Below are positions 1 through 63,617 of a stretch of 64,000 nt of DNA, piece by piece (position 1 is the first letter of the stretch; each line of letters begins with the position of its first letter). The notes below the pieces were generated by a model. That model did not search any database. It worked only from the letters and a program-made list of their open reading frames with translations, and had not been told where the DNA came from. Origin of the DNA: an uncultured Candidatus Cloacimonadota bacterium. Its GTDB lineage: Bacteria; Cloacimonadota; Cloacimonadia; JGIOTU-2. The translations under genes were made by a program, and so were the position numbers. The stretch spans positions 22,762 to 86,761 of the forward strand of contig CAYNOU010000002.1 of assembly GCA_964398885.1 (NCBI GenBank). Direction: 5' to 3'.

Positions 1-312
1 ATTTGCATAGTGACCTGTTCCACATCCAACATCAAGTAAAGAAACCTCCTGAAGGTCAATTCCTTCACGATTGCATAATTCAAGCATTAATCGACTGCCT
101 TCGTTGAGAATGCGTTGATTCTCTTCTTGTGATTTAATGCAACTTCCAACTCCACGCAAGTCAAAACCGTATTTTTTGTGGGTGTTTTTCCAAAAATATT
201 CTGCTTTATAATCATAATGTTTAGAATACCTAAACCATTTCAAAAAGACATAAATTCTATTAATCACTACGCGTATTGGATGTTTAAATAATTTAATAAG
301 CTTTTTATTCAT
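1..312 (-). CDS. Class I SAM-dependent methyltransferase, partial. The N-terminal part is present and the gene continues past the window start.
   Basis: Reverse-strand translation from the ATG at 310-312 gives MNKKLIKLFKHP...LLDVGCGTGHYAN, a SAM-binding motif I (GxGxG). The frame stays open to position 1. Confidence 0.55.
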   Translation of the reverse strand, partial: MNKKLIKLFKHPIRVVINRIYVFLKWFRYSKHYDYKAEYFWKNTHKKYGFDLRGVGSCIKSQEENQRILNEGSRLMLELCNREGIDLQEVSLLDVGCGTGHYAN

Positions 313-52312: not shown

Positions 52313-53302
52313 CTACTTCATTAAAATCATTTTCTTGGCAGAATGATATTGTCCTGTGTTAATTAGGTAGTAATAAATGCCACTTGAAACAGAGTTTCCA
52401 TTCTCATCAGAGCCATCCCAAATAACAGTATATTCTTTTGCACTACAATTTCTATCTAAAAGTGTCCTGATTTTTTGACCACTTACATTATAAACAGCAA
52501 TAGTAACATGAGATGGTTTTTTTAGAGTGAAAGCAATTTTTGTTTCTGAATAGAATGGATTCGGAAAGTTTGCTTGAAATACCGTATTAGCATTAATAGC
52601 ATTATCATCAACTGAACCAGGTTCTATTAAGTCATCTGGAGTTCTGGGATTCAATCCATATTCATCATAGCTATAATCAACACAACCTCTTATTATTTCC
52701 CATACCATACCCACAGTAATTACAATAGGTGGAACAACCTCGTCTAAATAAAAGAATCCATCATCAATTTGAGCAATTCCAGTACCATCATGAACTAACC
52801 ATTGTCCATATAAGTCTGGTTCTTGGATAACAGTTACATCATTCAACTCAACCAAAACACCTTCATAGGGTTCTCCAACACCCTCTGGGGCAAGGTCAGC
52901 ACAAGTGATAGAAGTTGCATCAGGAATAGGATTACCTGAACTCAATAAGGTTATAGTAATGGGGTCACTATAACCAGAAATTTCAGTCATTCCATAATAT
53001 TCATCTACAGTTCCTGTTACTTCTATTTCATCACCAGGAACGAGTGTTGTATCACCTGCCATATAAACAAGGATACCTTTCCAAGCACCACCTTCTGGCA
53101 TTGAAATAAAAAAGTTATCCTTATAATGTGCCCATTCTATAGCAGTAACAATTCCTGAAACTGTAACTACCAGTCCATCATAAGTTGAAGGATATGTATT
53201 ATCACTACCAGGTTCAGTTGTGTATTGAACCTTATAAATCGTTAAGGCAGAAAGACTTCCGACAAATAAGAATAAAACCAAAGCCATAACACACTTTTTC
53301 AT
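52313..53302 (-). CDS. Secreted protein with a T9SS (Por) C-terminal sorting domain.
   Basis: Signal peptide MKKCVMALVLFLFVGSLSA. The C-terminus FPNPFYSETKIAF...GIYYYLINTGQYHSAKKMILMK matches the T9SS C-terminal sorting-domain consensus. Confidence 0.6.
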   Translation of the reverse strand: MKKCVMALVLFLFVGSLSALTIYKVQYTTEPGSDNTYPSTYDGLVVTVSGIVTAIEWAHYKDNFFISMPEGGAWKGILVYMAGDTTLVPGDEIEVTGTVDEYYGMTEISGYSDPITITLLSSGNPIPDATSITCADLAPEGVGEPYEGVLVELNDVTVIQEPDLYGQWLVHDGTGIAQIDDGFFYLDEVVPPIVITVGMVWEIIRGCVDYSYDEYGLNPRTPDDLIEPGSVDDNAINANTVFQANFPNPFYSETKIAFTLKKPSHVTIAVYNVSGQKIRTLLDRNCSAKEYTVIWDGSDENGNSVSSGIYYYLINTGQYHSAKKMILMK

Positions 53303-53544: not shown

Positions 53545-54597
53545 TTATCTCATAATCACCATTTTCTTAACTTGAGAATTTTCTACACCACCGAGTTTAT
53601 AAAAATAAATTCCATTCTGAACTGGTATTCCATTATCATCCAGTCCATTCCAACCAACTGAACCAGAGTCGTTTTCTATCAGTAAGTTGCTGAATCCTTT
53701 AACCTTTTGTCCTTTAACATTATAAATTACAATATCTGCTTTTTGGGCCTGTTTTCTATTTAATCTATAGGAAATCACTGTAGTTGAATTAAATGGGTTT
53801 GGATAGTTTTGAATTAGTTTATATTCAGTTGAACTGATTGAGGTTTCATCAACATCTACAAAGGGTTGAGTAAGATATGAAAGATAAGAAGACATCAGAG
53901 TTGCTTTTGTATTGGGTCTGGCACCATCAATCATTGCTCCCAGAAGTGATGATGTAAAAATTGTATGATATTGACCTTCTCCGTCATAACAAACTCCACG
54001 ACCTTTTTCGTCCTGAGAAATGAAAAAGAGTGTACCTTTATCAGCCCCAATCTCATCAACTGAATAATCGGAGTCAGAACCATATTGATAATTAAACTCG
54101 TAGTCTTCTGCAAATGTTCCATCTACCCCAAACAAACTCTGAACATTATAAGCATAACCATCACCATCGTAATTACAACCGAAATAGCTAAAAAGGTCAG
54201 TAAAATAATGATCAGAAGCAAAGTCTACGCCCTCAACATAAACAGCTTTACCAGAATTCAAAAAATCAACAAGCCTTTGTTGCTCGACCGAGCCAATTAC
54301 TCCAGGAGGAGTAGAACCTCACCCCAAACACCAATGACCAAGTGTAACAAATATCAGGTCGTAATTTGATAGGTCTGAAGGTAAGTAAGAAAAAGTGGCA
54401 TAACTTTCACCATTAGTCATCAAAGCCTGTTGTAAAGCATATTGACAACCAACATATCCTGCTCCTTCTGGATCATTTATATAAGAACCATTATCGTTAT
54501 CCCAAATTAAAATTTCTAGTCCTATGACAATTTGAGGTATAATAAATAACATTATTACGAAACACAAAATTATTGAATATTGTTTAATAATTTTCAT
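53545..54597 (-). pseudogene. T9SS-sorted secreted protein interrupted by a single in-frame TGA (54319-54321). It is either a pseudogene or sequencing error, or a selenocysteine codon in a CLG-U context.
   Basis: The 92-aa ORF has a signal peptide and the 238-aa ORF has the T9SS C-terminal sorting domain. They are in the same frame and separated only by TGA: ...GHWCLG*GSTPPGVIG... It is adjacent to the sel operon. Confidence 0.5.
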
Positions 54598-54857
54598 GAT
54601 ACACCTCTTTTTGATTTTAATATCAAAATAAAAAACAAATTAATAAAATAATTGTCAAGAAAAATCTAACGATAAGCTTTCTAATAAAAAAATTTAACCC
54701 CAAATTTCGCGGAGTAGACACAAATTCACCCTGTTAGATGTTTACTATCTAACGGGGGAACCACAAAGATAATAAGTAACTCAGTGAATTCTGTCACGCA
54801 ATGTAGGGATTCTCTATGGTTAATTTCGGTTTATAGCTCTATAAATTTACTATCACT

Positions 54858-57056
54858 TTATTTAACAAAAATTTTTCCAGTGCCTTTGGAAATTACTTTT
54901 CCAATTTTTGAAAATCCTTGAATTCCCTTTTTCTGAAATTTGTCTATTAATTCTATACATTCATCTTCTGGAATAGAAACTAACAAACCACCAGAAGTTT
55001 GTGCATCGGATAAAAGAACTTTCTGAACATAAGAAATGGAAGAACTCCATTCTACAATTGGCTCAACAAATTTCAAATTGGATAAAGTCCCTCCAGGAAT
55101 GACATTTCCAGCTGCAAATTCAACTGCGCCATTAAGGAGTTTTACCTTGTCAGCAAATACTTCAACATTCACATCACTCGCTTTAGTCATTTCAGATAAA
55201 TGCCCCAATAAACCAAAACCCGTCACATCTGTGCATCCATGAACTGTAAAATCATTTAATATTTGAGATGTGTAATTATTCAAAGTTTCCATTGTCTCAA
55301 CTAATTCTGTTTTTTGACTTTCAGAAAGTAATCCTCTTTTTAAAGCAGTTGATAATATTCCTGTTCCAATTGGTTTTGTAAGAAGAATTACATCACCAAG
55401 TAGCATACCTACATTTTTCCAAATTTTTTCTGGATGAACAAGACCAACTACAACCATACCATATTTCGGTTCTGTATCTTCAATAGAATGTCCACCAATA
55501 ACAGTTATTCCCGCCTCTTTAGCTTTCTCATTTGCACCTTGTAAAATCTTCTCTAACACACTCATAGGTAACCGATTCGTAGGAAATCCAACTATATTCA
55601 ATCCAAATAATGGTTTTGCACCCATTGCATAAATGTCACTTAAGGCATTTGCTGTAGCTATCATTCCAAAATCAAAAGGATTATCTACAATAGGAGTAAA
55701 GAAATCCACAGTAACAACAACCGCAGTATTATCATCAATTTTATAAACAGCAGCATCATCAGCAGTATTTGTACTTACTAAAATATTAGTATCAACTGGA
55801 ATCGGCAATTTTTGTAATATTGTTTCCAATATCTGTGGTTCAATCTTACAAGCACATCCCATTCCGTGAGTAAAATGAGTTAATTTGATTTCTTCTCTCA
55901 TATCAATTATAATATGATCTTTCTTTGCTTGAAATTTTTGCACAGTTTTAATAATAATTTCTGCTGCTTGCTCAATTTCTTCTTCAGTTGTAAATTTACC
56001 CGTAGAAAATCGAATAGTTCCCATTGAATAATCGATAGGCACATTCATAGCTTGCAAAACAGCCGAAACATCTATCCTGTCAGAATGGCACGCAGCACCA
56101 GCAGAAGCTGCAACTCCACTCATTTCAGAAAGAATAGTGTTCGCTTCGATTTTATAAAATCCTAAACTTAAAGTATTAGGCAAACCTTTTTCTGGATGCC
56201 CATTCAAACGAAAATCAAGATTTGATTCAGTGAGCTTTTCATGTAACAGGTCCCTCATCTTCTTCATATGTTTACAATTTTTATCCAGATCATTACCTGC
56301 AATTTCGCATGCTTTACCTAAGCCAACAATTTCCAATACATTTTCTGTCCCGGGACGCAAATTCTGCTCCTGATTTGCTCCATGTATTAGTTTCTGCAAT
56401 CTTGTTCCTCTTTTTATATAAAGAGCACCAACACCTTTGGGTGCATATAATTTATGACCTGCAATTGAAAGGAGATCTACTCCTAATTCTTTTACATCCA
56501 CTTTAATTTTGCCCATAGATTGAGCTGCATCTGTATGGAAGTAAACATTGTATTTTTTTGCAACTTTTGATATGTCTTCAATTGGCTGAATCGTTCCAAC
56601 CTCATTATTTGCATGCATAATTGTAATCAAAATAGTTTGAGGAGTAATAGCTTTTTCAACATCATCTGGGTTAACCAAACCATATTCATCTACAGGTAGA
56701 TATGAAATATTGAGTCCCTGTGATTCTAAATATTCACAAACTTCTATTACTGAAGGATGCTCAATTGAAGAGGTTATAATATGATTTCCCCTATCTTTAT
56801 GAGACAATGCAATCCCTTTGATTGCAAAATTATTGGATTCAGAACCACCACTTGTAAAGATAATCTCATCAGAATGAGCATTAATCATATTTGCAACTTG
56901 TTTGCGTGCATTTTCAACAGCTTTTTTTGTTTGAATTCCATACCAGTGCATACTTGAAGGATTACCAAAATGATTATCTAAAAAAGGTCTCATAGCTTGT
57001 GCTACTTCAGGTGCAATTGGAGTTGTTGCATTATAATCTAAATATATTGGTTTCAT
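54858..57056 (-). CDS. selD: Fusion protein: NifS-like cysteine desulfurase / selenocysteine lyase (N-terminal) fused to selenide, water dikinase SelD (C-terminal).
   Basis: N-terminal half: LDYNATTP...SSMHWYG...FTSGGSESNN, a class V aminotransferase. C-terminal half: THGMGCACKIEP (the SelD GCxCK motif, Cys-type), then a PurM-like fold. 732 aa. Confidence 0.8.
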   Translation of the reverse strand: MKPIYLDYNATTPIAPEVAQAMRPFLDNHFGNPSSMHWYGIQTKKAVENARKQVANMINAHSDEIIFTSGGSESNNFAIKGIALSHKDRGNHIITSSIEHPSVIEVCEYLESQGLNISYLPVDEYGLVNPDDVEKAITPQTILITIMHANNEVGTIQPIEDISKVAKKYNVYFHTDAAQSMGKIKVDVKELGVDLLSIAGHKLYAPKGVGALYIKRGTRLQKLIHGANQEQNLRPGTENVLEIVGLGKACEIAGNDLDKNCKHMKKMRDLLHEKLTESNLDFRLNGHPEKGLPNTLSLGFYKIEANTILSEMSGVAASAGAACHSDRIDVSAVLQAMNVPIDYSMGTIRFSTGKFTTEEEIEQAAEIIIKTVQKFQAKKDHIIIDMREEIKLTHFTHGMGCACKIEPQILETILQKLPIPVDTNILVSTNTADDAAVYKIDDNTAVVVTVDFFTPIVDNPFDFGMIATANALSDIYAMGAKPLFGLNIVGFPTNRLPMSVLEKILQGANEKAKEAGITVIGGHSIEDTEPKYGMVVVGLVHPEKIWKNVGMLLGDVILLTKPIGTGILSTALKRGLLSESQKTELVETMETLNNYTSQILNDFTVHGCTDVTGFGLLGHLSEMTKASDVNVEVFADKVKLLNGAVEFAAGNVIPGGTLSNLKFVEPIVEWSSSISYVQKVLLSDAQTSGGLLVSIPEDECIELIDKFQKKGIQGFSKIGKVISKGTGKIFVK

Positions 57057-57058
57057 AA

Positions 57059-59002
57059 CTATCTTCCAATTTCTTTATACCCTTTTTCAGTAATAACTCT
57101 ATAATCCCCTTTTCGGATGGTAATACCTTCGCTATCAAATTGGGTAAGCATCAAAAGACATATTTTACGATTCCCTTCAATCAAATCGCGGAACTCAGAA
57201 ATTTTTATACCCTGAGGATTATCATTAAGATATTTTAATAGTTTTTCTCTTGCGCCATTAATAACAGAGGAATGAATAAAATTCCCATCAATATTACACA
57301 ACTTCCCTTTATTTATTAGCAATCCAATAATTTGTTTTATCTTCTTATCATTATAACCTTTTTTCTCAGCAATGGAGCATAAATCAGATAAGAGTGGGGT
57401 TTTCATCCCTGAATTTTTAAAGTAATTTTCCACAAATGCTATTTGCTTCTCATCATCTTTAGATATATTTAATTTATGGGTTTTCAAAGCCCATGTATTT
57501 TGGATTTGTTTTATTTTTCCTTCATCTTCAAGCTTTTTCATAATAATTTGAATCCATTTGTCATTTGATGAATCGTTTTTCATTCCAAACAAACCGACTA
57601 ATTCCTTAAAAGTTTTTCCCGTTTCTAAAAACGGATTTTTTTTATGATATTCTTTCAGATTTTCAAGAATCCTTTTTTCAGTTCTGCTTTTCTCTTCTTT
57701 TTTAAAAAGAAATATATTCTTATCTGATGATAGAATAGAAATATCTTCAGGTATAGACTTAAAAATTATCTCTCTAATTTTTTCTTCTGGTAAATTCAGT
57801 TTTTTTGCAATATATTCATAATTTAACGGATACAAACTTTTTCTAACTTCTGTAGCAATTAATTCAGATATATCACCAGAAGCAATTTTATAGAGCTTGT
57901 TAATTACATTTTCATTTCTTCTACGATGATGAAGTGGATGTGCATCAAGCACAATTCCCCCACCAAGAGTTAATTCGGACGAGGTATTTCGTAGAACAAA
58001 TTTATCACCGTAAAAAGCAATACAAGGAGAATCAAGATGTATCTGAACAATACCACTTTGTCTCGGTTTCAAAATTTCTTTATCAATAAGATGTATTTTT
58101 GCTTGTGCCTGCAATGTACCCAAAAGAAATATTGCTTGTGACCATCTGCCAAAACTGCTATTGTGATTAAACAAAGTAATTTTTGCATCAATCATATCTG
58201 TTGTCTGTAAAGGCATATTAGAGATAAGCATTCCTCTTGAAAAATTTTCTTTATTCAATCCTATCAGATTCAAAGAAGCTCTATCTCCAGCAGTTATTTC
58301 CTCAACCTGGGTTCCATGACGCTCCATTCTACGAATTCTCAACTTTTTTGCATTAGGCAGAAGATAAACTTTTTCATTATCTCTTAACTTACCACTAATA
58401 ACAGAGCCGTTTACAACGGTTCCAAAGCCTTTTACTGTAAATATCCTATCAATATACATTCTAAAAACATCACCAGTTGGTCGTTGTGGAATTTCTTCAC
58501 TAATTTTTACTAAAAGCTGCTTTAATTCCTCAATACCATATCCTGTTTTTGATGAAACTTTTATAATTGGAAATTCTTCAAGAAAAGTTCCTTTTATAAA
58601 ATCAGCAACTTCTTGTTCTACAATTTTGAGAAGCTCTTCATCTACAAGGTCAATCTTTGTTAAAGCTACAAATCCTTTTTTTATCCCAAGAATCTTCATA
58701 ACATTAAGATGCTCAACTGTTTGTGGCATAATTCCACTATCTGCAGCAATAACGAGCATAACAAAATCAATTCCGCTTGCTCCTGCAACCATAGTATTCA
58801 CAAAATCTTTATGACCAGGAACATCTATTATTCCAATACTCTGTCCATTTGGTAGCTCAATATGTGCGAAACCAAGATTAATGGTTATTCCTCTAATCTT
58901 TTCTTCTTTGTGAGTATCACATTCAATATTTGTTAAAGCTTTTATTAAAGCAGTTTTCCCATGGTCAATATGGCCTGCTGTTCCCATTATTAAATGTTTC
59001 AT
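57059..59002 (-). CDS. selB: Selenocysteine-specific translation elongation factor SelB.
   Basis: N-terminal G-domain MGTAGHIDHGKTALIKALT...DVPGHKDF...TKIDL. 647 aa with a C-terminal winged-helix extension. It lies between selA and selD. Confidence 0.85.
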   Translation of the reverse strand: MKHLIMGTAGHIDHGKTALIKALTNIECDTHKEEKIRGITINLGFAHIELPNGQSIGIIDVPGHKDFVNTMVAGASGIDFVMLVIAADSGIMPQTVEHLNVMKILGIKKGFVALTKIDLVDEELLKIVEQEVADFIKGTFLEEFPIIKVSSKTGYGIEELKQLLVKISEEIPQRPTGDVFRMYIDRIFTVKGFGTVVNGSVISGKLRDNEKVYLLPNAKKLRIRRMERHGTQVEEITAGDRASLNLIGLNKENFSRGMLISNMPLQTTDMIDAKITLFNHNSSFGRWSQAIFLLGTLQAQAKIHLIDKEILKPRQSGIVQIHLDSPCIAFYGDKFVLRNTSSELTLGGGIVLDAHPLHHRRRNENVINKLYKIASGDISELIATEVRKSLYPLNYEYIAKKLNLPEEKIREIIFKSIPEDISILSSDKNIFLFKKEEKSRTEKRILENLKEYHKKNPFLETGKTFKELVGLFGMKNDSSNDKWIQIIMKKLEDEGKIKQIQNTWALKTHKLNISKDDEKQIAFVENYFKNSGMKTPLLSDLCSIAEKKGYNDKKIKQIIGLLINKGKLCNIDGNFIHSSVINGAREKLLKYLNDNPQGIKISEFRDLIEGNRKICLLMLTQFDSEGITIRKGDYRVITEKGYKEIGR

Positions 59003-59188: not shown

Positions 59189-60577
59189 TCAATGTAAAAG
59201 GCATTTTTGTATTTCTTGTGATACATAATCTATATCTTCTTCATTAATTGTTAAAACATCAAAATGGATATTTCCTTCTCTGAGAATTCCAAGTATTGGC
59301 CTTTCTAAATGCAACAATTGTTTAAACAACTTTTCTGCAAAATTTTTCGTATTATCCTTGTTAATCAGCATTACTGAATAGCTATCTAATTTTAGACGAG
59401 GAAGGGTTCCTCCGCCACAATGTGCAATACTCTCTACTATTTCAGATTGTATATGAAATTTTGCTAACTCATTTTGTAATTTTTTTGCAATATTATAAAG
59501 CTCGGATTTACTTTTTTTTAGCATCCTATAAACAGGTATTTTTGTAAAAACATCTTCATCTTTAATATAATATCGCAACACTGTGGATAAAGCGGCAATA
59601 GTCATTTTACCCACTCGGAGTGCTCGCATAAGTGGAGCTTTTGAAAGTTTAGATATTAATTCCTTTTTACCTGCGATTATCCCTGCTTGAGGACCACCAA
59701 GTATTTTATCACAACTAAAAGTAACTAAATCTGTTCCGTAGTTTAGACTGGAAACAGCATCAGGTTCATTCCCAAAATGTAAATCTTTTTGTTTTCTTAT
59801 AAGTCCGGAGCCCAAATCATACATTAAAATCAGATTATATTTTCTTGCAAGCTTTGATAATTCTTTTAGTTCTACCTCTTCTGTAAAGCCTTCTATATAG
59901 TAATTTGATTTATGAACTTTTAAAATGATTCTTGTATCACCAGTAATTGCATTTTCATAATCTGATATTCTGGTTCTGTTTGTTGTGCCAACTTCAACCA
60001 TTTTTGCACCGCTTGCCTTCATTATATCAGGAATCCTGAAAGAACCACCAATTTCTATCAATTCTCCACGAGATATAATTGCTTCTTTATTTTCAGCAAA
60101 AGTTTTTAAACAGAGCAGGACTCCAGCGGCATTATTATTAACCACAACTGCATCTTCTGCTTTTGTAACAAATTTAATTAATTCTGAAATGTGTTTATTT
60201 CTCTGCCCTCTTTTACCTTTATCTAAATCAAATTCTAAATTAGAATATCCAAGTATGATTGGTTCTAATTCTTTTAGAACATCTTTACCAAGTGGAGCTC
60301 TTCCAAGATTTGTATGAAGTATAATTCCAGTTGCATTGACCATTGGTTTAAGTGATTTTTTGGTTATAGATTGGATAATAACTTTAATATCCTCAATAAT
60401 TTGGTTTAAGTTTTTTGCAGGCTTTGCTTTTAAAACATTTTTTCTATACTCATCCAAAATTTGTCTAATTGAATATGTAATCAAATCATTTCCAAATTTG
60501 TTTTTCAATTTCATTATTTCAGGATGATTTAATAATTTATCCACGCCGGGAATCTTTTTAAGTTCTTCTTTACACAT
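59189..60577 (-). CDS. selA: L-seryl-tRNA(Sec) selenium transferase (selenocysteine synthase).
   Basis: MCKEELKKIPGVDKLL...NATGIILHTNLGRAPL...NNNAAGVLL...RGELIEIGGSFRIPDIM...VGTTNRT are SelA hallmarks. The start is placed at ATG 60575-60577, because the track GTG lies inside a repeat. Confidence 0.85.
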   Translation of the reverse strand: MCKEELKKIPGVDKLLNHPEIMKLKNKFGNDLITYSIRQILDEYRKNVLKAKPAKNLNQIIEDIKVIIQSITKKSLKPMVNATGIILHTNLGRAPLGKDVLKELEPIILGYSNLEFDLDKGKRGQRNKHISELIKFVTKAEDAVVVNNNAAGVLLCLKTFAENKEAIISRGELIEIGGSFRIPDIMKASGAKMVEVGTTNRTRISDYENAITGDTRIILKVHKSNYYIEGFTEEVELKELSKLARKYNLILMYDLGSGLIRKQKDLHFGNEPDAVSSLNYGTDLVTFSCDKILGGPQAGIIAGKKELISKLSKAPLMRALRVGKMTIAALSTVLRYYIKDEDVFTKIPVYRMLKKSKSELYNIAKKLQNELAKFHIQSEIVESIAHCGGGTLPRLKLDSYSVMLINKDNTKNFAEKLFKQLLHLERPILGILREGNIHFDVLTINEEDIDYVSQEIQKCLLH

Positions 60578-60587
60578 AGTTAATCCT

Positions 60588-60648
60588 AAAAAATTTGCCA
60601 CAGATTTAGACCAATCAAAAAAATGATTACCTTTATTTCTGTGGCAAA
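60588..60648 (-). terminator. Hairpin (11-bp stem TTTGCCACAGA/TCTGTGGCAAA, about 32-nt loop) plus a U6 run between tRNA-Sec and the selA RBS. Terminator-like or a processing element.
   Basis: The minus strand reads tttgccacagaaataaaggtaatcatttttttgattggtctaaatctgtggcaaatttttt aggattaact ATG. It uses the family-B TTGCCACAGA motif as an inverted repeat. Confidence 0.4.
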
Positions 60649-60662
60649 CAATAAAATTATAA

Positions 60663-60757
60663 AGCCGAGAGGGCAGGAATCGAACCTGCCACAGACGGTT
60701 TTATCCGCCCACTACTGATTTTGAAGACCAGTTGGAACACCAGTTCCATCCTCTCAA
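60663..60757 (-). tRNA. selC: tRNA-Sec (selC), anticodon UCA.
   Basis: Minus-strand fold: 8-bp acceptor (TTGAGAGG/CCTCTCGG), 6-bp D-stem TGGAAC/GTTCCA with the 4-nt loop TGGT, 6-bp anticodon stem with loop CTTCAAA (UCA at 34-36), a long variable arm, and a 5-bp T-stem GCAGG/CCTGC with loop TTCGATT. About 94-95 nt. CCA is not encoded. Confidence 0.75.
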
Positions 60758-60795: not shown

Positions 60796-62730
60796 TTATC
60801 GCATTATCACCATTTTTCTTACCTGAGATTTTTCAGAATTAGAAATTTTATAGAAATATACACCATTGCTAACTGCATTTCCATTTGTATCTGTTCCATC
60901 CCAGACAATCTCACCATAATTTCCTTCAAAAGGAAGGTTATTAAATTCTTTTACAATATCACCTTTAATATTATAAATAATGATTTTTGATTTTCTACTC
61001 GGCTTTATGTTATAAGAAATATTTGTCTCGGAGTTAAATGGATTTGGAAAATTCTGCAGCAAGCCTGAATTGTTATTTATCGCAGAATCAACACTATGTG
61101 GTTGATCAAAATATAAAGCACCCATATCTGCAACAGTTCCATCAGGGTCTGGTGGAGAAGCTGGATCTCCTGCGTCAATACACGGAGAACCTTCTAATAA
61201 ACTCCAGGATGCTTCAAGACCATTGTAACTCGTTCCACTTCCTGCTGTTGGATTCTCAAACATTGGGTCTTCATTGATATTTCCAGTTCCACTATAACCA
61301 CCTGATATACAAGTATAGGTTACATAAACAGTACTACCAAATAGATTGAATACATCTAAGTCGTCAATTAGGATACAATTGTTAACTGTTGCAGAAGAAG
61401 ATGCAAACCACATTGCTCCATAACCATAGGTAGATTCATTATTTGCTATTGTGTTGTTAATCATAGTCGGGTTTGATGAGTTTTTTAAACTAATTGCACC
61501 AGCGAAACCTGCAGTATTATTAACGATTATATTATGAGAAATCAGAGGATTTGCATTATCACAAACAATTCCTGCACAAAGAATTGAACTTGTATTATTG
61601 GCTATTAGGTTTTTATAAATATACACACTATCTAAACCAATTACATTAATTGCTGCGCCTTTCTGGGTTGTAGTTAAATTCTCATAAATAGTGTTTTCAA
61701 TAATATCAACTTTTGAATTTTCAATATCTACTGCACAATAAGTGGCATTAGTTATTTCACAATTCTGAATAAGATTGTCTTCCATAGTATTAAAGAATTG
61801 AATACCTTTCCAACTATCATTTGATGTGAAAATTATAGGACCTTTTCCAGAAGCATCAGCAACTATTTTTCCTTCAACTTTTATCTTGCTATTATTATTT
61901 GTAATTATTTGAACATCAGGTTCAATAGTAAGTTCACAGCCATCTGGAATTGATACATCATCAGTGATAGTATAAGGGCTAAAAGCTGTATTCCAGACAC
62001 CAGCAACAGTTCCCGAAATATTATTACTATTAGTAACAGTGATGTAGTCCTCTTGAGTAATACTTGCACTATCAGCACCACTCCAAACAGTTAGAGATAC
62101 ATCATAAGATCCAACATCAGTATAAAGGAAAAATGGATTTTCTTCGTTACTGTCAATTAAGCCATCACCATCAAGATCCCAAGCCCATGTATCTGCACTA
62201 CCCGCTGTACTATGGAATTGAACTCCTAATGAAGGAGGTCCTGTTTGTATACTTGCATCAAATCCTGCCATTAATCCTAAAGATGCAATCGCATCATCTA
62301 AATATGTTGAGAAATTTACATTATTCTCACCATAATATAGTTGATATTCACCACCAATAACTGCAAAGAATGGTACATAGCCATTACCATAATCCCAATA
62401 TAAAGAGCTAATATCAGAAGAATGATAAAATGTACAATTATAAGGTGGAATACTCCAATCATTTTCAGATAGGAAGTAAACATGTCCACCGGGGTTATAT
62501 GTTTGCCACATAGCTTCTAATTGCGGCGCCGCCGCAACACAGCCACCTCAACTATAACCTCCCCAGAAAAAGACTACCGCTTTTTCTGCGTTGATCAATT
62601 CATATATTGAATGCGGTGCTCCAGTATTATCAGTCCAACTAAAATCATCTACAACATCGCCTACTTGGTATACTGCAAACAATGAACTTGCAAATACCAA
62701 AAATGCGAAAAGGGTAATTGCTTTTTTCAT
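60796..62730 (-). CDS. Candidate selenoprotein. Order of domains: signal peptide, thioredoxin/TlpA-like redoxin domain with a U-x-x-C motif (Sec at the in-frame TGA 62548-62550), PKD-like domain, beta-helix repeats, T9SS C-terminal sorting domain.
   Basis: The signal-peptide ORF and the 571-aa ORF are in the same frame and separated only by TGA: ...EKAVVFFWGGYS-U-GGCVAAAPQLEAMWQTY..., a redoxin pattern with FW..xCxxC. A SECIS-like hairpin starts 10 nt downstream. sel genes lie immediately downstream. The C-terminus FPNPFNSE...KMVIMR is a T9SS sorting domain. Confidence 0.6.
62521..62537 (-). promoter_or_regulatory. Putative bacterial SECIS element: GC-rich hairpin 10 nt 3' of the in-frame UGA.
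   Basis: Plus strand ttgcggcgccgccgcaa (8-bp inverted repeat). The mRNA reads UGA GGUGGCUGUG UUGCGGCGGCGCCGCAA. It is a conspicuous 100% GC core in a roughly 30% GC genome. Confidence 0.45.
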
Positions 62731-62876: not shown

Positions 62877-63617
62877 TTATCTCAAAAGTAGCATTTTTTT
62901 TGTTTCTTGATAACTCCCAACTTTTAATGAATAGAAATATATTCCGTTTGCAAGTTTTCTACCATTTGCATTTGTGCCATCCCATACAACTTCTTTAATT
63001 TTTTCCCGAGTATAATTGGGATTAATTTTTAATTCTTTTATTAGTTGCCCTTTCAGGTTGAATATTTCAACAATTGGGTCTTTATGTGTGGGTTTATCAA
63101 GATAAAATGAAATAGTTGTTGAAAAAGAAAAAGGATTGGGATAATTTTGTGATAAATTGCAAGTTAAGGGAATATTGACATCATCTATACTATTTTCTGT
63201 TGCATATGAAAAATTTATTGTATCTGGCTCACTAATTGAAGGGGACTCAAAGATGAACTGAAAGGTAAAACTTCCAGTAGAACTAACTGTTATGGTAAAA
63301 TCAAGATTAAGTGTATCACCACTTACAAATTCAAATTGCCATGGCCATCCGAGCATATGGCATACTCCTGAACCATGAAGTTCATGACACCAGATCATAG
63401 ACCAATCTGATGGTATATTTTGAGCTTCAACATTTACTGTGAATGTATCTGTTTGACCATTATTGATAACATAAAAAAAATCTGATGTAAAAATATAAGT
63501 GCTATCTGTATAAGGAGGTCCCACAACATTTGGATTGAATGGAATGTTAACTTCTAAGTCAGCAATGAGCAGATTTGCACAAAATAAGATTATTGATAAT
63601 GTTAATATTTTTTTCAT
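62877..63617 (-). CDS. Secreted protein with a T9SS C-terminal sorting domain.
   Basis: Signal peptide MKKILTLSIILFCANLLIA. C-terminus NYPNPFSFSTTISF...GIYFYSLKVGSYQETKKMLLLR. Confidence 0.6.
   Translation of the reverse strand: MKKILTLSIILFCANLLIADLEVNIPFNPNVVGPPYTDSTYIFTSDFFYVINNGQTDTFTVNVEAQNIPSDWSMIWCHELHGSGVCHMLGWPWQFEFVSGDTLNLDFTITVSSTGSFTFQFIFESPSISEPDTINFSYATENSIDDVNIPLTCNLSQNYPNPFSFSTTISFYLDKPTHKDPIVEIFNLKGQLIKELKINPNYTREKIKEVVWDGTNANGRKLANGIYFYSLKVGSYQETKKMLLLR

What the first reader, a model, noticed from the sequence alone, without database searches (positions are those of the whole stretch)
53545..54597. Second T9SS cargo gene broken only by an in-frame TGA (CLG-U context), on the other side of the sel cluster
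The 92-aa signal-peptide ORF and the 238-aa C-terminal-sorting-domain ORF are in the same frame and separated by a single TGA at 54319-54321 (...FVTLGHWCLG-TGA-GSTPPGVIGSVEQQRL...). A Cys lies three residues upstream (CxxU-like). No convincing SECIS hairpin lies at the canonical spacing. The downstream hairpins are a 6-bp stem 5 nt after the UGA and GCUC-GGUC-GAGC about 26 nt after it. It is therefore ambiguous: a Sec codon, a recent nonsense mutation (TGG to TGA, Trp is plausible) or a sequencing error. TGA is a bona fide stop elsewhere in the window, for example tkt.
Basis: partly seen in the sequence, partly recalled or inferred. Interest (0 to 1): 0.55.

Follow-up and report, generated by a model that had tools for sequence, protein, structure and literature searches.

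The report
Secreted selenoprotein gene, new family
The "broken" gene is intact: its in-frame TGA encodes selenocysteine in a Cys-x-x-Sec motif, and it belongs to an apparently unlisted family of secreted selenoproteins in Cloacimonadota bacteria, encoded next to the selenocysteine machinery.

Summary
Observation confirmed. One gene on the minus strand (54597..53545) is interrupted only by TGA at 54321..54319, in the context HWCLG-U-GSTPPG.

It is neither a pseudogene nor an error.
- 25 distinct homologues (32-92% identity) carry TGA, and only TGA, at this column. Protein conservation runs across it.
- 17 further database proteins end exactly before this column, and about 54 start just after it.
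- Seven full-length relatives have Cys there (CxxC-G-x-x-PPG).
- One database entry shows Trp, but its DNA is TGA.
- selA, selB, a NifS-SelD fusion and tRNA-Sec lie immediately upstream. TGA ends 9 of 39 long ORFs in the window.

A hairpin follows the UGA in every homologue and covaries. The window uses GCUC-GGUC-GAGC (loop 30 nt after the UGA), built from four rare codons.

The product has a signal peptide, a roughly 220-aa domain with no Pfam or NCBIfam model, and a T9SS sorting domain. A model of a Cys homologue gives a class I glutamine-amidotransferase/ThuA-like fold, with CxxU in the loop after strand 3.

The family matches none of the 119 families in a 2026 inventory. Its function, probably a surface thiol/selenol redox or metal-binding site, is inferred only.

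The parts
53545..54597 (-). Complete selenoprotein gene: 350 codons plus TAA stop. ATG at 54597..54595, TAA at 53547..53545.
   Evidence: Continuous homology to full-length Cys homologues.
54602..54610 (-). Shine-Dalgarno-like AAAGAGGTG a few bases before the ATG.
   Evidence: Read directly. Inference only.
54520..54597 (-). N-terminal signal-peptide-like segment, residues 1-26: MKIIKQYSIILCFVIMLFIIPQIVIG.
   Evidence: Sequence features only: basic N-terminus and hydrophobic core. Homologues have equivalent segments. No signal-peptide predictor was available.
53854..54519 (-). Uncharacterised domain of about 220 aa (residues 27-248) with a class I glutamine-amidotransferase/ThuA-like fold. It spans the UGA.
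54328..54330 (-). Cys90 codon (TGT), first residue of the CxxU motif.
   Evidence: Cys is present in all 25 TGA homologues and all CxxC homologues.
54319..54321 (-). UGA codon 93, read as selenocysteine.
   Evidence: TGA in 25 distinct homologues. TGC in L011 and P0011/L035. Sec machinery is adjacent.
54272..54301 (-). Best SECIS candidate in this gene: extended hairpin AGU..UUG-GCUC[GGUC]GAGC..CAA..GCU. The core is 54293..54282 and the apical loop GGUC starts 30 nt after the UGA.
   Evidence: -7.0 kcal/mol with the first 12 nt blocked. The same architecture occurs in L002 and the same core in L013, with a G-C to A-U exchange in the outer stem of L002. The codons GGC UCG GUC GAG are used at 12.7, 2.8, 7.1 and 23.6% in the window.
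54290..54302 (-). Weak remnant (GAGU-AAUUG-GCUC, 4 bp) of the hairpin most homologues use. It is mutually exclusive with the hairpin above.
   Evidence: Helix at +16..+21 with +25..+30 in alignments A4 and A6. Covariation score 0.273 against 0.144 +/- 0.025 in shuffles. In the window the loop codon is AUU rather than GUN.
53554..53805 (-). T9SS type A C-terminal sorting domain, residues 265-348.
   Evidence: PF18962 E 2.7e-7, 31.2 bits (cut-off 27). TIGR04183 33.2 bits (cut-off 23)..
54858..57056 (-). NifS-like cysteine desulfurase fused to selenophosphate synthetase SelD. Context: immediately upstream on the same strand.
   Evidence: TIGR00476 selD 374.7 bits (cut-off 125). NifS/IscS models over residues 4-377.
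57059..59002 (-). selB, the Sec-specific elongation factor (context).
   Evidence: TIGR00475 362.3 bits, cut-off 242.
59189..60601 (-). selA, selenocysteine synthase (context).
   Evidence: TIGR00474 551.7 bits, cut-off 268.
60664..60757 (-). tRNA-Sec, anticodon UCA (context).
   Evidence: ARAGORN. Rfam RF01852 58.3 bits, gathering score 47. Fold.

Best explanation
This is one intact gene for a secreted selenoprotein.

How the UGA is read (inferred from conservation and context): UGA at 54321..54319 is decoded as selenocysteine by the tRNA-Sec/SelA/SelB/SelD system encoded directly upstream. An mRNA hairpin inside the coding sequence, 54301..54272 with a GGUC apical loop 30 nt after the UGA, most likely acts as the bacterial SECIS that recruits SelB.

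What the product is:
- a signal peptide;
- a roughly 220-aa alpha/beta domain of the class I glutamine-amidotransferase/ThuA-like fold;
- a type A T9SS sorting domain, so it should be exported across the outer membrane and probably stay attached to the cell surface.

The Cys-Leu-Gly-Sec motif sits in the flexible loop after beta-strand 3, at the C-terminal edge of the sheet where enzymes of this fold carry their active sites.

Most likely function (inference, about 45%): a selenenylsulfide/selenol-thiol redox centre acting on extracellular substrates such as disulfides, polysulfide or peroxides. A high-affinity metal or metalloid site is the main alternative.

The gene belongs to a Sec-dominated clade, mostly Cloacimonadota, of a large uncharacterised domain superfamily.
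For: Conserved recoding signal:
- TGA, and never TAA or TAG, at the same column in 25 distinct homologues of 32-92% identity. The motif is LG-x-[WYF]-C-x-x-U-G-x-x-PPG, and protein conservation holds on both sides.
- 17 further N-terminal database fragments end at ...C-x-x. About 54 C-terminal fragments start just after the column.
- The stretch between the TGA and the first possible restart codon (GSTPPGVIGSVEQQRLVDF) is among the most conserved parts.

Cys/Sec pair:
- L011 has WCLGCGSTPPG. P0011, P0036, P0038, P0042, P0061 and P0065 have C-x-x-C in the same loop, followed by PP.

Machinery and genetic code:
- tRNA-Sec, and selA, selB and selD above their curated cut-offs, are adjacent.
- Family members also sit beside NifS-SelD and tRNA-Sec in L002, and beside tRNA-Sec in L026.
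- TGA terminates 9 of 39 long ORFs in the window.

RNA structure:
- In all 22 distinct sequences tested, the 33 nt downstream of the UGA fold better than the gene background. The percentile is 0.23 or lower, median 0.03.
- The helix at +16..21 with +25..30 covaries: score 0.273 against 0.144 +/- 0.025, 0 of 500 shuffles reach it, and it is the best of seven registers.
- In L036 and L037 an otherwise conserved Gly codon is replaced (Tyr, Thr) while pairing is kept.
- The window, L008, L002 and L013, which have AUY at the loop codon, all carry GCUC-GG(U/G)C-GAGC instead. In the window it is made of rare codons, joint frequency 6e-5.

Export: PF18962 and TIGR04183 are above their cut-offs.
Against: - There is no direct evidence of selenium incorporation or of expression.
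- The window's own hairpin is short: a 4-bp core, -7 kcal/mol for the extended form, z-scores only about -1 against shuffles, and the 8th percentile of the gene background. Its loop lies 9 nt further from the UGA than in most homologues.
- RNAalifold found no consensus helix, because the register differs between subgroups.
- The two Cys homologues whose DNA I could read keep an equally strong hairpin at the same place (percentiles 0.007 and 0.033). The hairpin is therefore not specific to UGA-containing genes. It may partly reflect coding constraints on G-x-V-G-S/T, or be a fossil.
- The structure is a model of a 32%-identical Cys homologue, not of this protein. The CxxC loop itself has pLDDT below 70, and below 50 at residues 78-82.
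- The redox function rests only on the CxxU motif. Most members of the wider superfamily have no Cys at all, so the scaffold's ancestral function is not redox. No reductant for a surface-exposed CxxU is known.
Confidence: 0.88

Rival explanations
1. Recent nonsense mutation (TGG or TGC to TGA) or sequencing/assembly error. On this reading the locus is a pseudogene or an artefact.
For: A single in-frame stop in an otherwise open frame is what a fresh nonsense mutation looks like. The window's own downstream hairpin is weak by shuffle statistics.
Against: - The same TGA is present in 25 distinct homologues down to 32% identity, from different samples and lineages, with purifying selection on both sides.
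- A separately built assembly of a sequencing run (Logan SRR9700624) is 100% identical over 2,722 bp, including the TGA. Whether that run is the window's own source sample is unknown.
- No homologue has TGG. The only 'W' in the protein library is a TGA translated with the wrong code table.
Confidence: 0.01
2. UGA is read as a standard amino acid (Trp, Gly or Cys), either through a reassigned code or through SECIS-independent read-through. Alternatively, termination at the UGA is the normal outcome, and the 92-aa peptide and a re-initiated C-terminal protein are made separately.
For: Gene callers split the gene into two ORFs in every database entry. One pipeline translated a homologue with TGA = Trp.
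Against: - TGA terminates 9 of 39 long ORFs, and long genes contain no in-frame TGA, so the code is standard.
- A dedicated tRNA-Sec with selA, selB and selD lies next door.
- The aligned residue in TGA-free homologues is Cys, in a CxxC motif.
- There is no conserved start codon or ribosome-binding site after the TGA, while the codons immediately after it are highly conserved.
- In the model, the TGA falls inside a single folded domain, between strand 3 and helix 3. Neither half would fold alone.
Confidence: 0.04
3. A genuine selenoprotein in which the Cys-x-x-Sec pair is not a redox couple. It would instead be a high-affinity ligand pair for a metal or metalloid (Hg, Cu, Ni, As, or a Se/S species) at the cell surface, or Sec would be a catalytic nucleophile of a hydrolase- or transferase-type enzyme on the GATase1-like scaffold.
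For: - The fold belongs to the class I amidotransferase/DJ-1/ThuA group, whose members use a nucleophile at the C-terminal edge of the sheet.
- Several selenoprotein families in the 2026 inventory are metal-related and carry CxxU, C/SxxU or CU motifs.
- A surface-exposed redox couple has no obvious reductant.
- Relatives lacking Cys often have His or Tyr at the Sec column and Ser or Pro at the Cys column, so the loop is a variable functional site.
Against: - CxxU and UxxC motifs are, in most families studied, redox motifs (review PMC13188914).
- The motif follows strand 3, not the nucleophile elbow after strand 4, where amidotransferases place their Cys (secondary structure compared with textbook GATase topology; my inference).
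- No conserved His/Glu partners specific to the Sec clade were identified.
Confidence: 0.35

Closest known systems
Bacterial selenoproteins with a CxxU redox motif (SelW-like, AhpD-like, glycine reductase protein A, and others in Table 1 of PMC13188914)
   Same: In-frame UGA; a Cys three residues upstream; Cys-for-Sec homologues; a hairpin immediately downstream within the ORF; dependence on selA, selB, selC and selD.
   Different: The fold is amidotransferase/ThuA-like rather than thioredoxin-like or AhpD-like. The Sec-bearing domain matches no Pfam or NCBIfam model. The protein has a signal peptide and a T9SS sorting domain. In the searches run here, Sec forms far outnumber Cys forms.
Class I glutamine-amidotransferase-like / ThuA-like / GH42 middle-domain structures (PDB 4jqs, 3rht, 1t0b, 3tts)
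   Different: Only 10-16% identity and no detectable sequence homology. No Cys-His-Glu triad was identified. The CxxU lies after strand 3, not at the nucleophile elbow.
[quoted passage not shown]
   Same: A selenoprotein on an amidotransferase-type fold.
   Different: The GxUxG motif suggests to me that Sec replaces the catalytic Cys there; the source gives only the motif. Here the motif is CxxU in a different loop. NF004836 was not among the NCBIfam hits. That protein carries no export signals that I know of.
T9SS type A cargo proteins (Por_Secre_tail, TIGR04183/PF18962)
   Same: The C-terminal 85 residues match above the curated cut-offs. Neighbouring genes at 52313..53302, 60796..62730 and 62877..63617 carry the same tail.
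   Different: My literature searches found no description of T9SS cargo containing selenocysteine.
E. coli fdhF SECIS (from my own knowledge, not tested here)
   Same: A stem-loop within the ORF just 3' of the UGA, with a GGUC apical loop. In most homologues a GU lies in the loop about 22-24 nt after the UGA.
   Different: The core stem in the window is only 4 bp, about 10 bp with internal loops. The loop lies 30 nt after the UGA rather than about 20. Sequence and register vary between homologues.

Membership tests
Bacterial selenoprotein gene (UGA = Sec) | In-frame UGA conserved in orthologues, with protein conservation on both sides | tested here: met
   25 distinct homologues, all TGA. Fragments end or start at this column.
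Bacterial selenoprotein gene (UGA = Sec) | Homologues with Cys at the aligned position | tested here: met
   L011 (TGC), P0011 (TGC), P0036, P0038, P0042, P0061, P0065.
Bacterial selenoprotein gene (UGA = Sec) | Sec-decoding machinery in the same genome (tRNA-Sec, SelA, SelB, SelD) | tested here: met
   All four lie within 6.5 kb upstream on the same strand.
Bacterial selenoprotein gene (UGA = Sec) | SECIS-type stem-loop directly downstream, with the apical loop (containing G) roughly 16-37 nt from the UGA. This is the bSECISearch criterion as I recall it. | tested here: inconclusive
   A hairpin is present in every homologue and covaries. The window's version has a GGUC loop at +30 and uses rare codons. 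However, it is weak on its own, and the Cys homologues keep a hairpin too. No bacterial SECIS predictor or Rfam model was available (one search returned only the tRNA-Sec).
Bacterial selenoprotein gene (UGA = Sec) | Selenium demonstrably incorporated (75Se labelling or mass spectrometry) | not testable with these tools
   Needs an experiment.
T9SS type A cargo | C-terminal sorting domain matching TIGR04183/PF18962 above the cut-off | tested here: met
   33.2 bits (cut-off 23) and 31.2 bits (cut-off 27).
T9SS type A cargo | N-terminal Sec-pathway signal peptide | tested here: inconclusive
   A typical basic and hydrophobic N-terminus is read from the sequence. No predictor was run.
T9SS type A cargo | T9SS core genes (porK/L/M/N, sov, porU/V) in the genome | not tested
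   Only a 64-kb window is available. Many neighbouring genes carry the same tail.
Class I glutamine amidotransferase (enzymatic family) | GATase1-type alpha/beta fold | tested here: met
Class I glutamine amidotransferase (enzymatic family) | Cys-His-Glu triad with Cys at the nucleophile elbow after strand 4 (G-x-C-x-G) | tested here: not met
   After strand 4 the family has (V/I)Y(V/I)EG-x-D/N with no Cys. The Cys/Sec pair follows strand 3. There is no hit to any GATase Pfam or NCBIfam model.
Any of the 119 prokaryotic selenoprotein families in PMC13188914 Table 1 | Match to that family's Pfam, NCBIfam or CDD model | tested here: not met
   There are no Pfam-A or NCBIfam 20.0 hits at E <= 1 outside the sorting domain. 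The few families defined only by CDD or PANTHER ids are thioredoxin-like, CopZ, BtuF or Fe-S proteins, and are not this fold. CDD itself could not be searched.

The most novel reading that the evidence does not exclude
Cloacimonadota may export a small "surface selenoproteome" through the T9SS, encoded around the sel operon. It would include this Sec-dominated CxxU family on an amidotransferase-like scaffold, plus thioredoxin/peroxiredoxin-like UxxC proteins (window 62730..60796 and L002:7737-9896). On this reading, selenium-based redox or metal chemistry takes place outside the cell in anaerobic digesters and sediments, and this family is a selenoprotein family missing from current inventories.
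Probability: 0.5. Interest if true: 0.62.

Novelty: new member of a known kind. Interest (0 to 1): 0.52.

Why it matters
- **Annotation.** Every public copy I retrieved is annotated as two fragments (or, in one case, with Trp). A whole family of exported proteins is therefore invisible or mis-annotated in Cloacimonadota genomes, which are abundant in anaerobic digesters.
- **A new family.** It adds a selenoprotein family on a fold not otherwise known to carry a CxxU motif.
- **Sec dominance.** Sec forms greatly outnumber Cys forms, which argues that selenium gives a real advantage at this site.
- **Location.** It points to selenium chemistry at the outer surface of the cell, which I found no description of in T9SS organisms.
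- **Testability.** The tight linkage with selA, selB, selD and tRNA-Sec, seen in three lineages, gives a compact set of parts for testing non-E. coli SECIS recognition.

Tried and rejected
- **Structure of the window protein itself.** I modelled the Cys homologue P0011 instead.
- **Foldseek against afdb50.** The library was unavailable.
- **Family and structure searches by sequence.** Pfam, NCBIfam and a PDB sequence search of the N-domain found nothing.
- **Rfam.** The gathering-threshold scan of the window returned only the tRNA-Sec.
- **RNAalifold on the 21-sequence alignment.** It found only the invariant CC/GG pairs of the Pro-Pro-Gly codons. The real helix shifts register between subgroups, so I tested a named helix instead.
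- **The 6-bp stem 5 nt after the UGA.** Rejected as the SECIS. It is not conserved and is too close to the codon being decoded.
- **Trp at the Sec column (P0044).** Rejected after reading its DNA.
- **Gene neighbourhoods of homologues.** Searches show no conserved operon partner apart from the recurrent sel genes and tRNA-Sec, so they give no functional clue.
- **Literature searches.** Searches for selenoproteins in Cloacimonadota, for T9SS with selenocysteine, and for ThuA-like selenoproteins found nothing relevant.

Full report
**1. The observation**

On the minus strand a 92-aa ORF (54597..54319, including its TGA stop codon) and a 238-aa ORF (54261..53545) share one frame. The frame between them is open except for TGA at 54321..54319. 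Read-through gives a 350-residue protein with ...IFVTLGHWCLG-U-GSTPPGVIGSVEQQRL..., so a Cys lies three residues before the TGA.

The C-terminal 85 residues match the T9SS type A sorting domain above the curated cut-offs. A systematic scan finds only one other plausible ORF pair joined by a single TGA in the window, at 62550..62548.

**2. Context**

Directly upstream on the same strand lie four genes of the Sec machinery:
- a NifS-SelD fusion (54858..57056);
- selB (57059..59002);
- selA (59189..60601);
- tRNA-Sec (60664..60757).

All are identified above curated thresholds.

TGA ends 9 of 39 ORFs of 200 aa or more, and ORFs up to 984 aa have no internal TGA. The genetic code is therefore standard, with a dedicated Sec system. 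The window has 31.8% G+C. Its closest relatives are Cloacimonadota MAGs.

**3. Orthologue test**

The first protein search returned ten homologues, and every one covered only the part after the TGA. Reading their contigs showed a roughly 92-aa ORF just upstream in the same frame, separated by TGA.

Scans of genome and metagenome collections raised this to 25 distinct sequences of 32-92% identity. In all of them the aligned codon is TGA, never TAA or TAG, while the terminal stops are mostly TAA or TAG. The motif is LG-x-[WYF]-C-x-x-U-G-x-x-PPG.

Further support comes from database fragments:
- A profile search found 17 more N-terminal fragments that end exactly at ...C-x-x.
- An exhaustive HMM search found about 54 proteins that begin just after the column.

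Seven uninterrupted relatives have Cys at the column, in C-x-x-C followed by PP: L011, P0011, P0036, P0038, P0042, P0061 and P0065. The single library entry with Trp (P0044) has TGA in its DNA and had been translated with a TGA = Trp table.

A separately built assembly of a sequencing run (Logan SRR9700624) is 100% identical to the window over 2,722 bp, including the TGA. Whether that run is the window's own source sample is unknown.

These results meet the classical criteria for a selenoprotein gene. They exclude a nonsense mutation, a sequencing error and Trp.

**4. The hairpin**

In all 22 distinct TGA sequences tested, the 33 nt from +12 to +45 fold better than the same-sized windows of the rest of the gene. 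The percentile is 0.23 or lower, with a median of 0.03.

Most homologues form a 5-6 bp helix. It pairs nt +16..+21 with +25..+30, around a loop that is the Val codon GUN. Examples are GGUUCC-GUC-GGAACU, GGCUCC-GUG-GGAGCU, GGAGCC-GUU-GGCUCU and GGUGC-AGUUG-GCACC.

On the 23-sequence alignment this helix gives:
- a covariation score of 0.273, against 0.144 +/- 0.025 in shuffles (0 of 500 shuffles reach it);
- the best score of seven slid registers;
- four of six pairs with changes on both sides.

In L036 and L037 an otherwise conserved Gly codon is replaced (UAC, ACU) in a way that keeps the pairing.

The window, its 92% relative L008, L002 and the distant L013 (37% identity) have AUY instead of GUN at the loop codon. 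All four carry a different hairpin 9 nt further on, GCUC-GG(U/G)C-GAGC. In the window and L002 it extends to about 10 bp, with a G-C to A-U exchange between them.

In the window this hairpin is encoded by GGC UCG GUC GAG. These codons are used for only 12.7, 2.8, 7.1 and 23.6% of their amino acids in the window, a joint frequency of 6e-5. That argues for selection on the RNA.

Three caveats apply:
- The window's hairpin is not impressive by itself (z about -1).
- RNAalifold finds no consensus helix.
- The two Cys homologues with readable DNA keep a strong hairpin at the same place. This could be a fossil SECIS or a coding constraint.

I therefore treat the SECIS assignment as probable but not proven.

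**5. The protein**

The roughly 220-residue domain carrying the motif matches nothing in Pfam, NCBIfam or PDB sequences. This holds for the window protein and for the full-length relatives.

The TGA falls inside this single domain, between strand 3 and the next helix. The two ORFs therefore cannot be independent proteins.

The CxxC/CxxU loop follows strand 3 and is modelled with low confidence, so it is probably flexible. The amidotransferase nucleophile elbow after strand 4 is occupied by the invariant YxEG motif with no Cys, so this is not an amidotransferase.

The wider superfamily is large: 2,154 representatives at E <= 1e-3. It consists mostly of giant multidomain proteins with LGIY[SP]xNN[HY] in place of CxxU. 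The Cys/Sec pair is thus an innovation of one clade. In that clade, Sec forms outnumber Cys forms roughly nine to one among the sequences retrieved.

Domain architectures vary, with additions of CARDB, PKD or CarboxypepD_reg domains. All have signal-peptide-like N-termini, and most have T9SS tails.

**6. Mechanism**

- **Shown:** the conserved UGA/Cys column, the adjacent Sec machinery, a conserved and covarying downstream hairpin, the export domain, and the fold (by proxy model).
- **Inferred:** SelB with Sec-tRNA-Sec is recruited by the hairpin and inserts Sec at codon 93. The protein crosses the inner membrane by the Sec pathway and the outer membrane by the T9SS. C90 and U93 form a reversible selenenylsulfide that acts on extracellular substrates.

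The main functional rival is metal or metalloid binding, which I put at about 35%. Nothing here discriminates between the two.

**7. Comparison with what is known**

A May 2026 review compiles 119 prokaryotic selenoprotein families, each with a Pfam, NCBIfam, CDD or PANTHER identifier (PMC13188914). The domain here hits none of the Pfam or NCBIfam models. None of the listed families is a ThuA/GATase1-like CxxU protein. The one amidotransferase entry (NF004836, GxUxG) has a different motif.

Neither that review, the deep-Sep paper nor the BSepDB paper mentions T9SS or Cloacimonadota. Full-text searches linking selenoproteins with Cloacimonadota or with type IX secretion found nothing relevant.

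I conclude this is a new family of an established kind. It is not a new mechanism.

**8. Verdict**

Interest is moderate, for four reasons: a well-supported and apparently unlisted family, Sec-dominated, exported by the T9SS, and linked to the sel operon in three lineages. The recoding mechanism itself is conventional, and the function remains unknown.

Noticed in passing
window 60796..62730 (-), UGA at 62550..62548: A second T9SS selenoprotein gene on the other side of the sel cluster. It has a signal peptide, an AhpC/TSA-Redoxin-like domain with FFWGGYS-U-GGC (UxxC), a PKD domain and a Por_Secre_tail. A strong hairpin, UUGCGGC-GGC-GCCGCAA, starts 10 nt after the UGA.
   Followed up: partly
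L002:7737-9896 and L002:9939-10035: In a related contig, a third kind of T9SS selenoprotein (FSTSSG-U-PYCPSA, a thioredoxin-like UxxC, plus PKD and the sorting tail) lies between a family member and a tRNA-Sec. A NifS-SelD fusion sits upstream. Several exported selenoproteins therefore cluster with the sel genes in this group.
   Followed up: partly
L026:5034-5126: A tRNA-Sec gene sits about 200 nt after the stop of a 42%-identical family member. This is a third lineage in which the family is linked to Sec machinery.
   Followed up: no
P0044 / L037:251-1285: The protein library holds a homologue with Trp at the Sec column, but its DNA has TGA. The gene caller evidently used a TGA = Trp table. 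This is a database artefact that could mislead Cys/Sec/Trp comparisons.
   Followed up: yes
L011:6001-8802 and L035:8001-8957: The Cys-containing homologues (TGC) keep a strong hairpin at the SECIS position: GGUGC-GGUCG-GCACC and GGCGC-GGUCG-GCGCC, at percentiles 0.033 and 0.007. This could be a fossil SECIS after Sec-to-Cys conversion or a coding constraint.
   Followed up: partly
window 60664..60757 (-): The tRNA-Sec folds with a 7-bp acceptor stem, a 5-bp T stem and a single-nucleotide linker to a 6-bp D stem. This fits the 12-bp 'Cloacimonetes type' mentioned in PMC5330540.
   Followed up: partly
window 54858..57056 (-): SelD is fused to a NifS-like cysteine desulfurase and has Cys, not Sec, in its N-terminal loop (GMGCACK). 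The same fusion sits next to family members in L002 and L034.
   Followed up: no
protein library, P0035-P0180: The domain belongs to a large superfamily with no Pfam model: 2,154 representatives at 50% identity with E <= 1e-3. Many are 1,000-2,300-aa proteins with two or three copies and an LGIY[SP]xNN[HY] loop in place of CxxU.
   Followed up: partly
window 52313..53302 (-), 62877..63617 (-): The flanking genes are also small proteins with signal peptides and T9SS sorting tails. The sel cluster is therefore embedded in a run of T9SS cargo genes.
   Followed up: no
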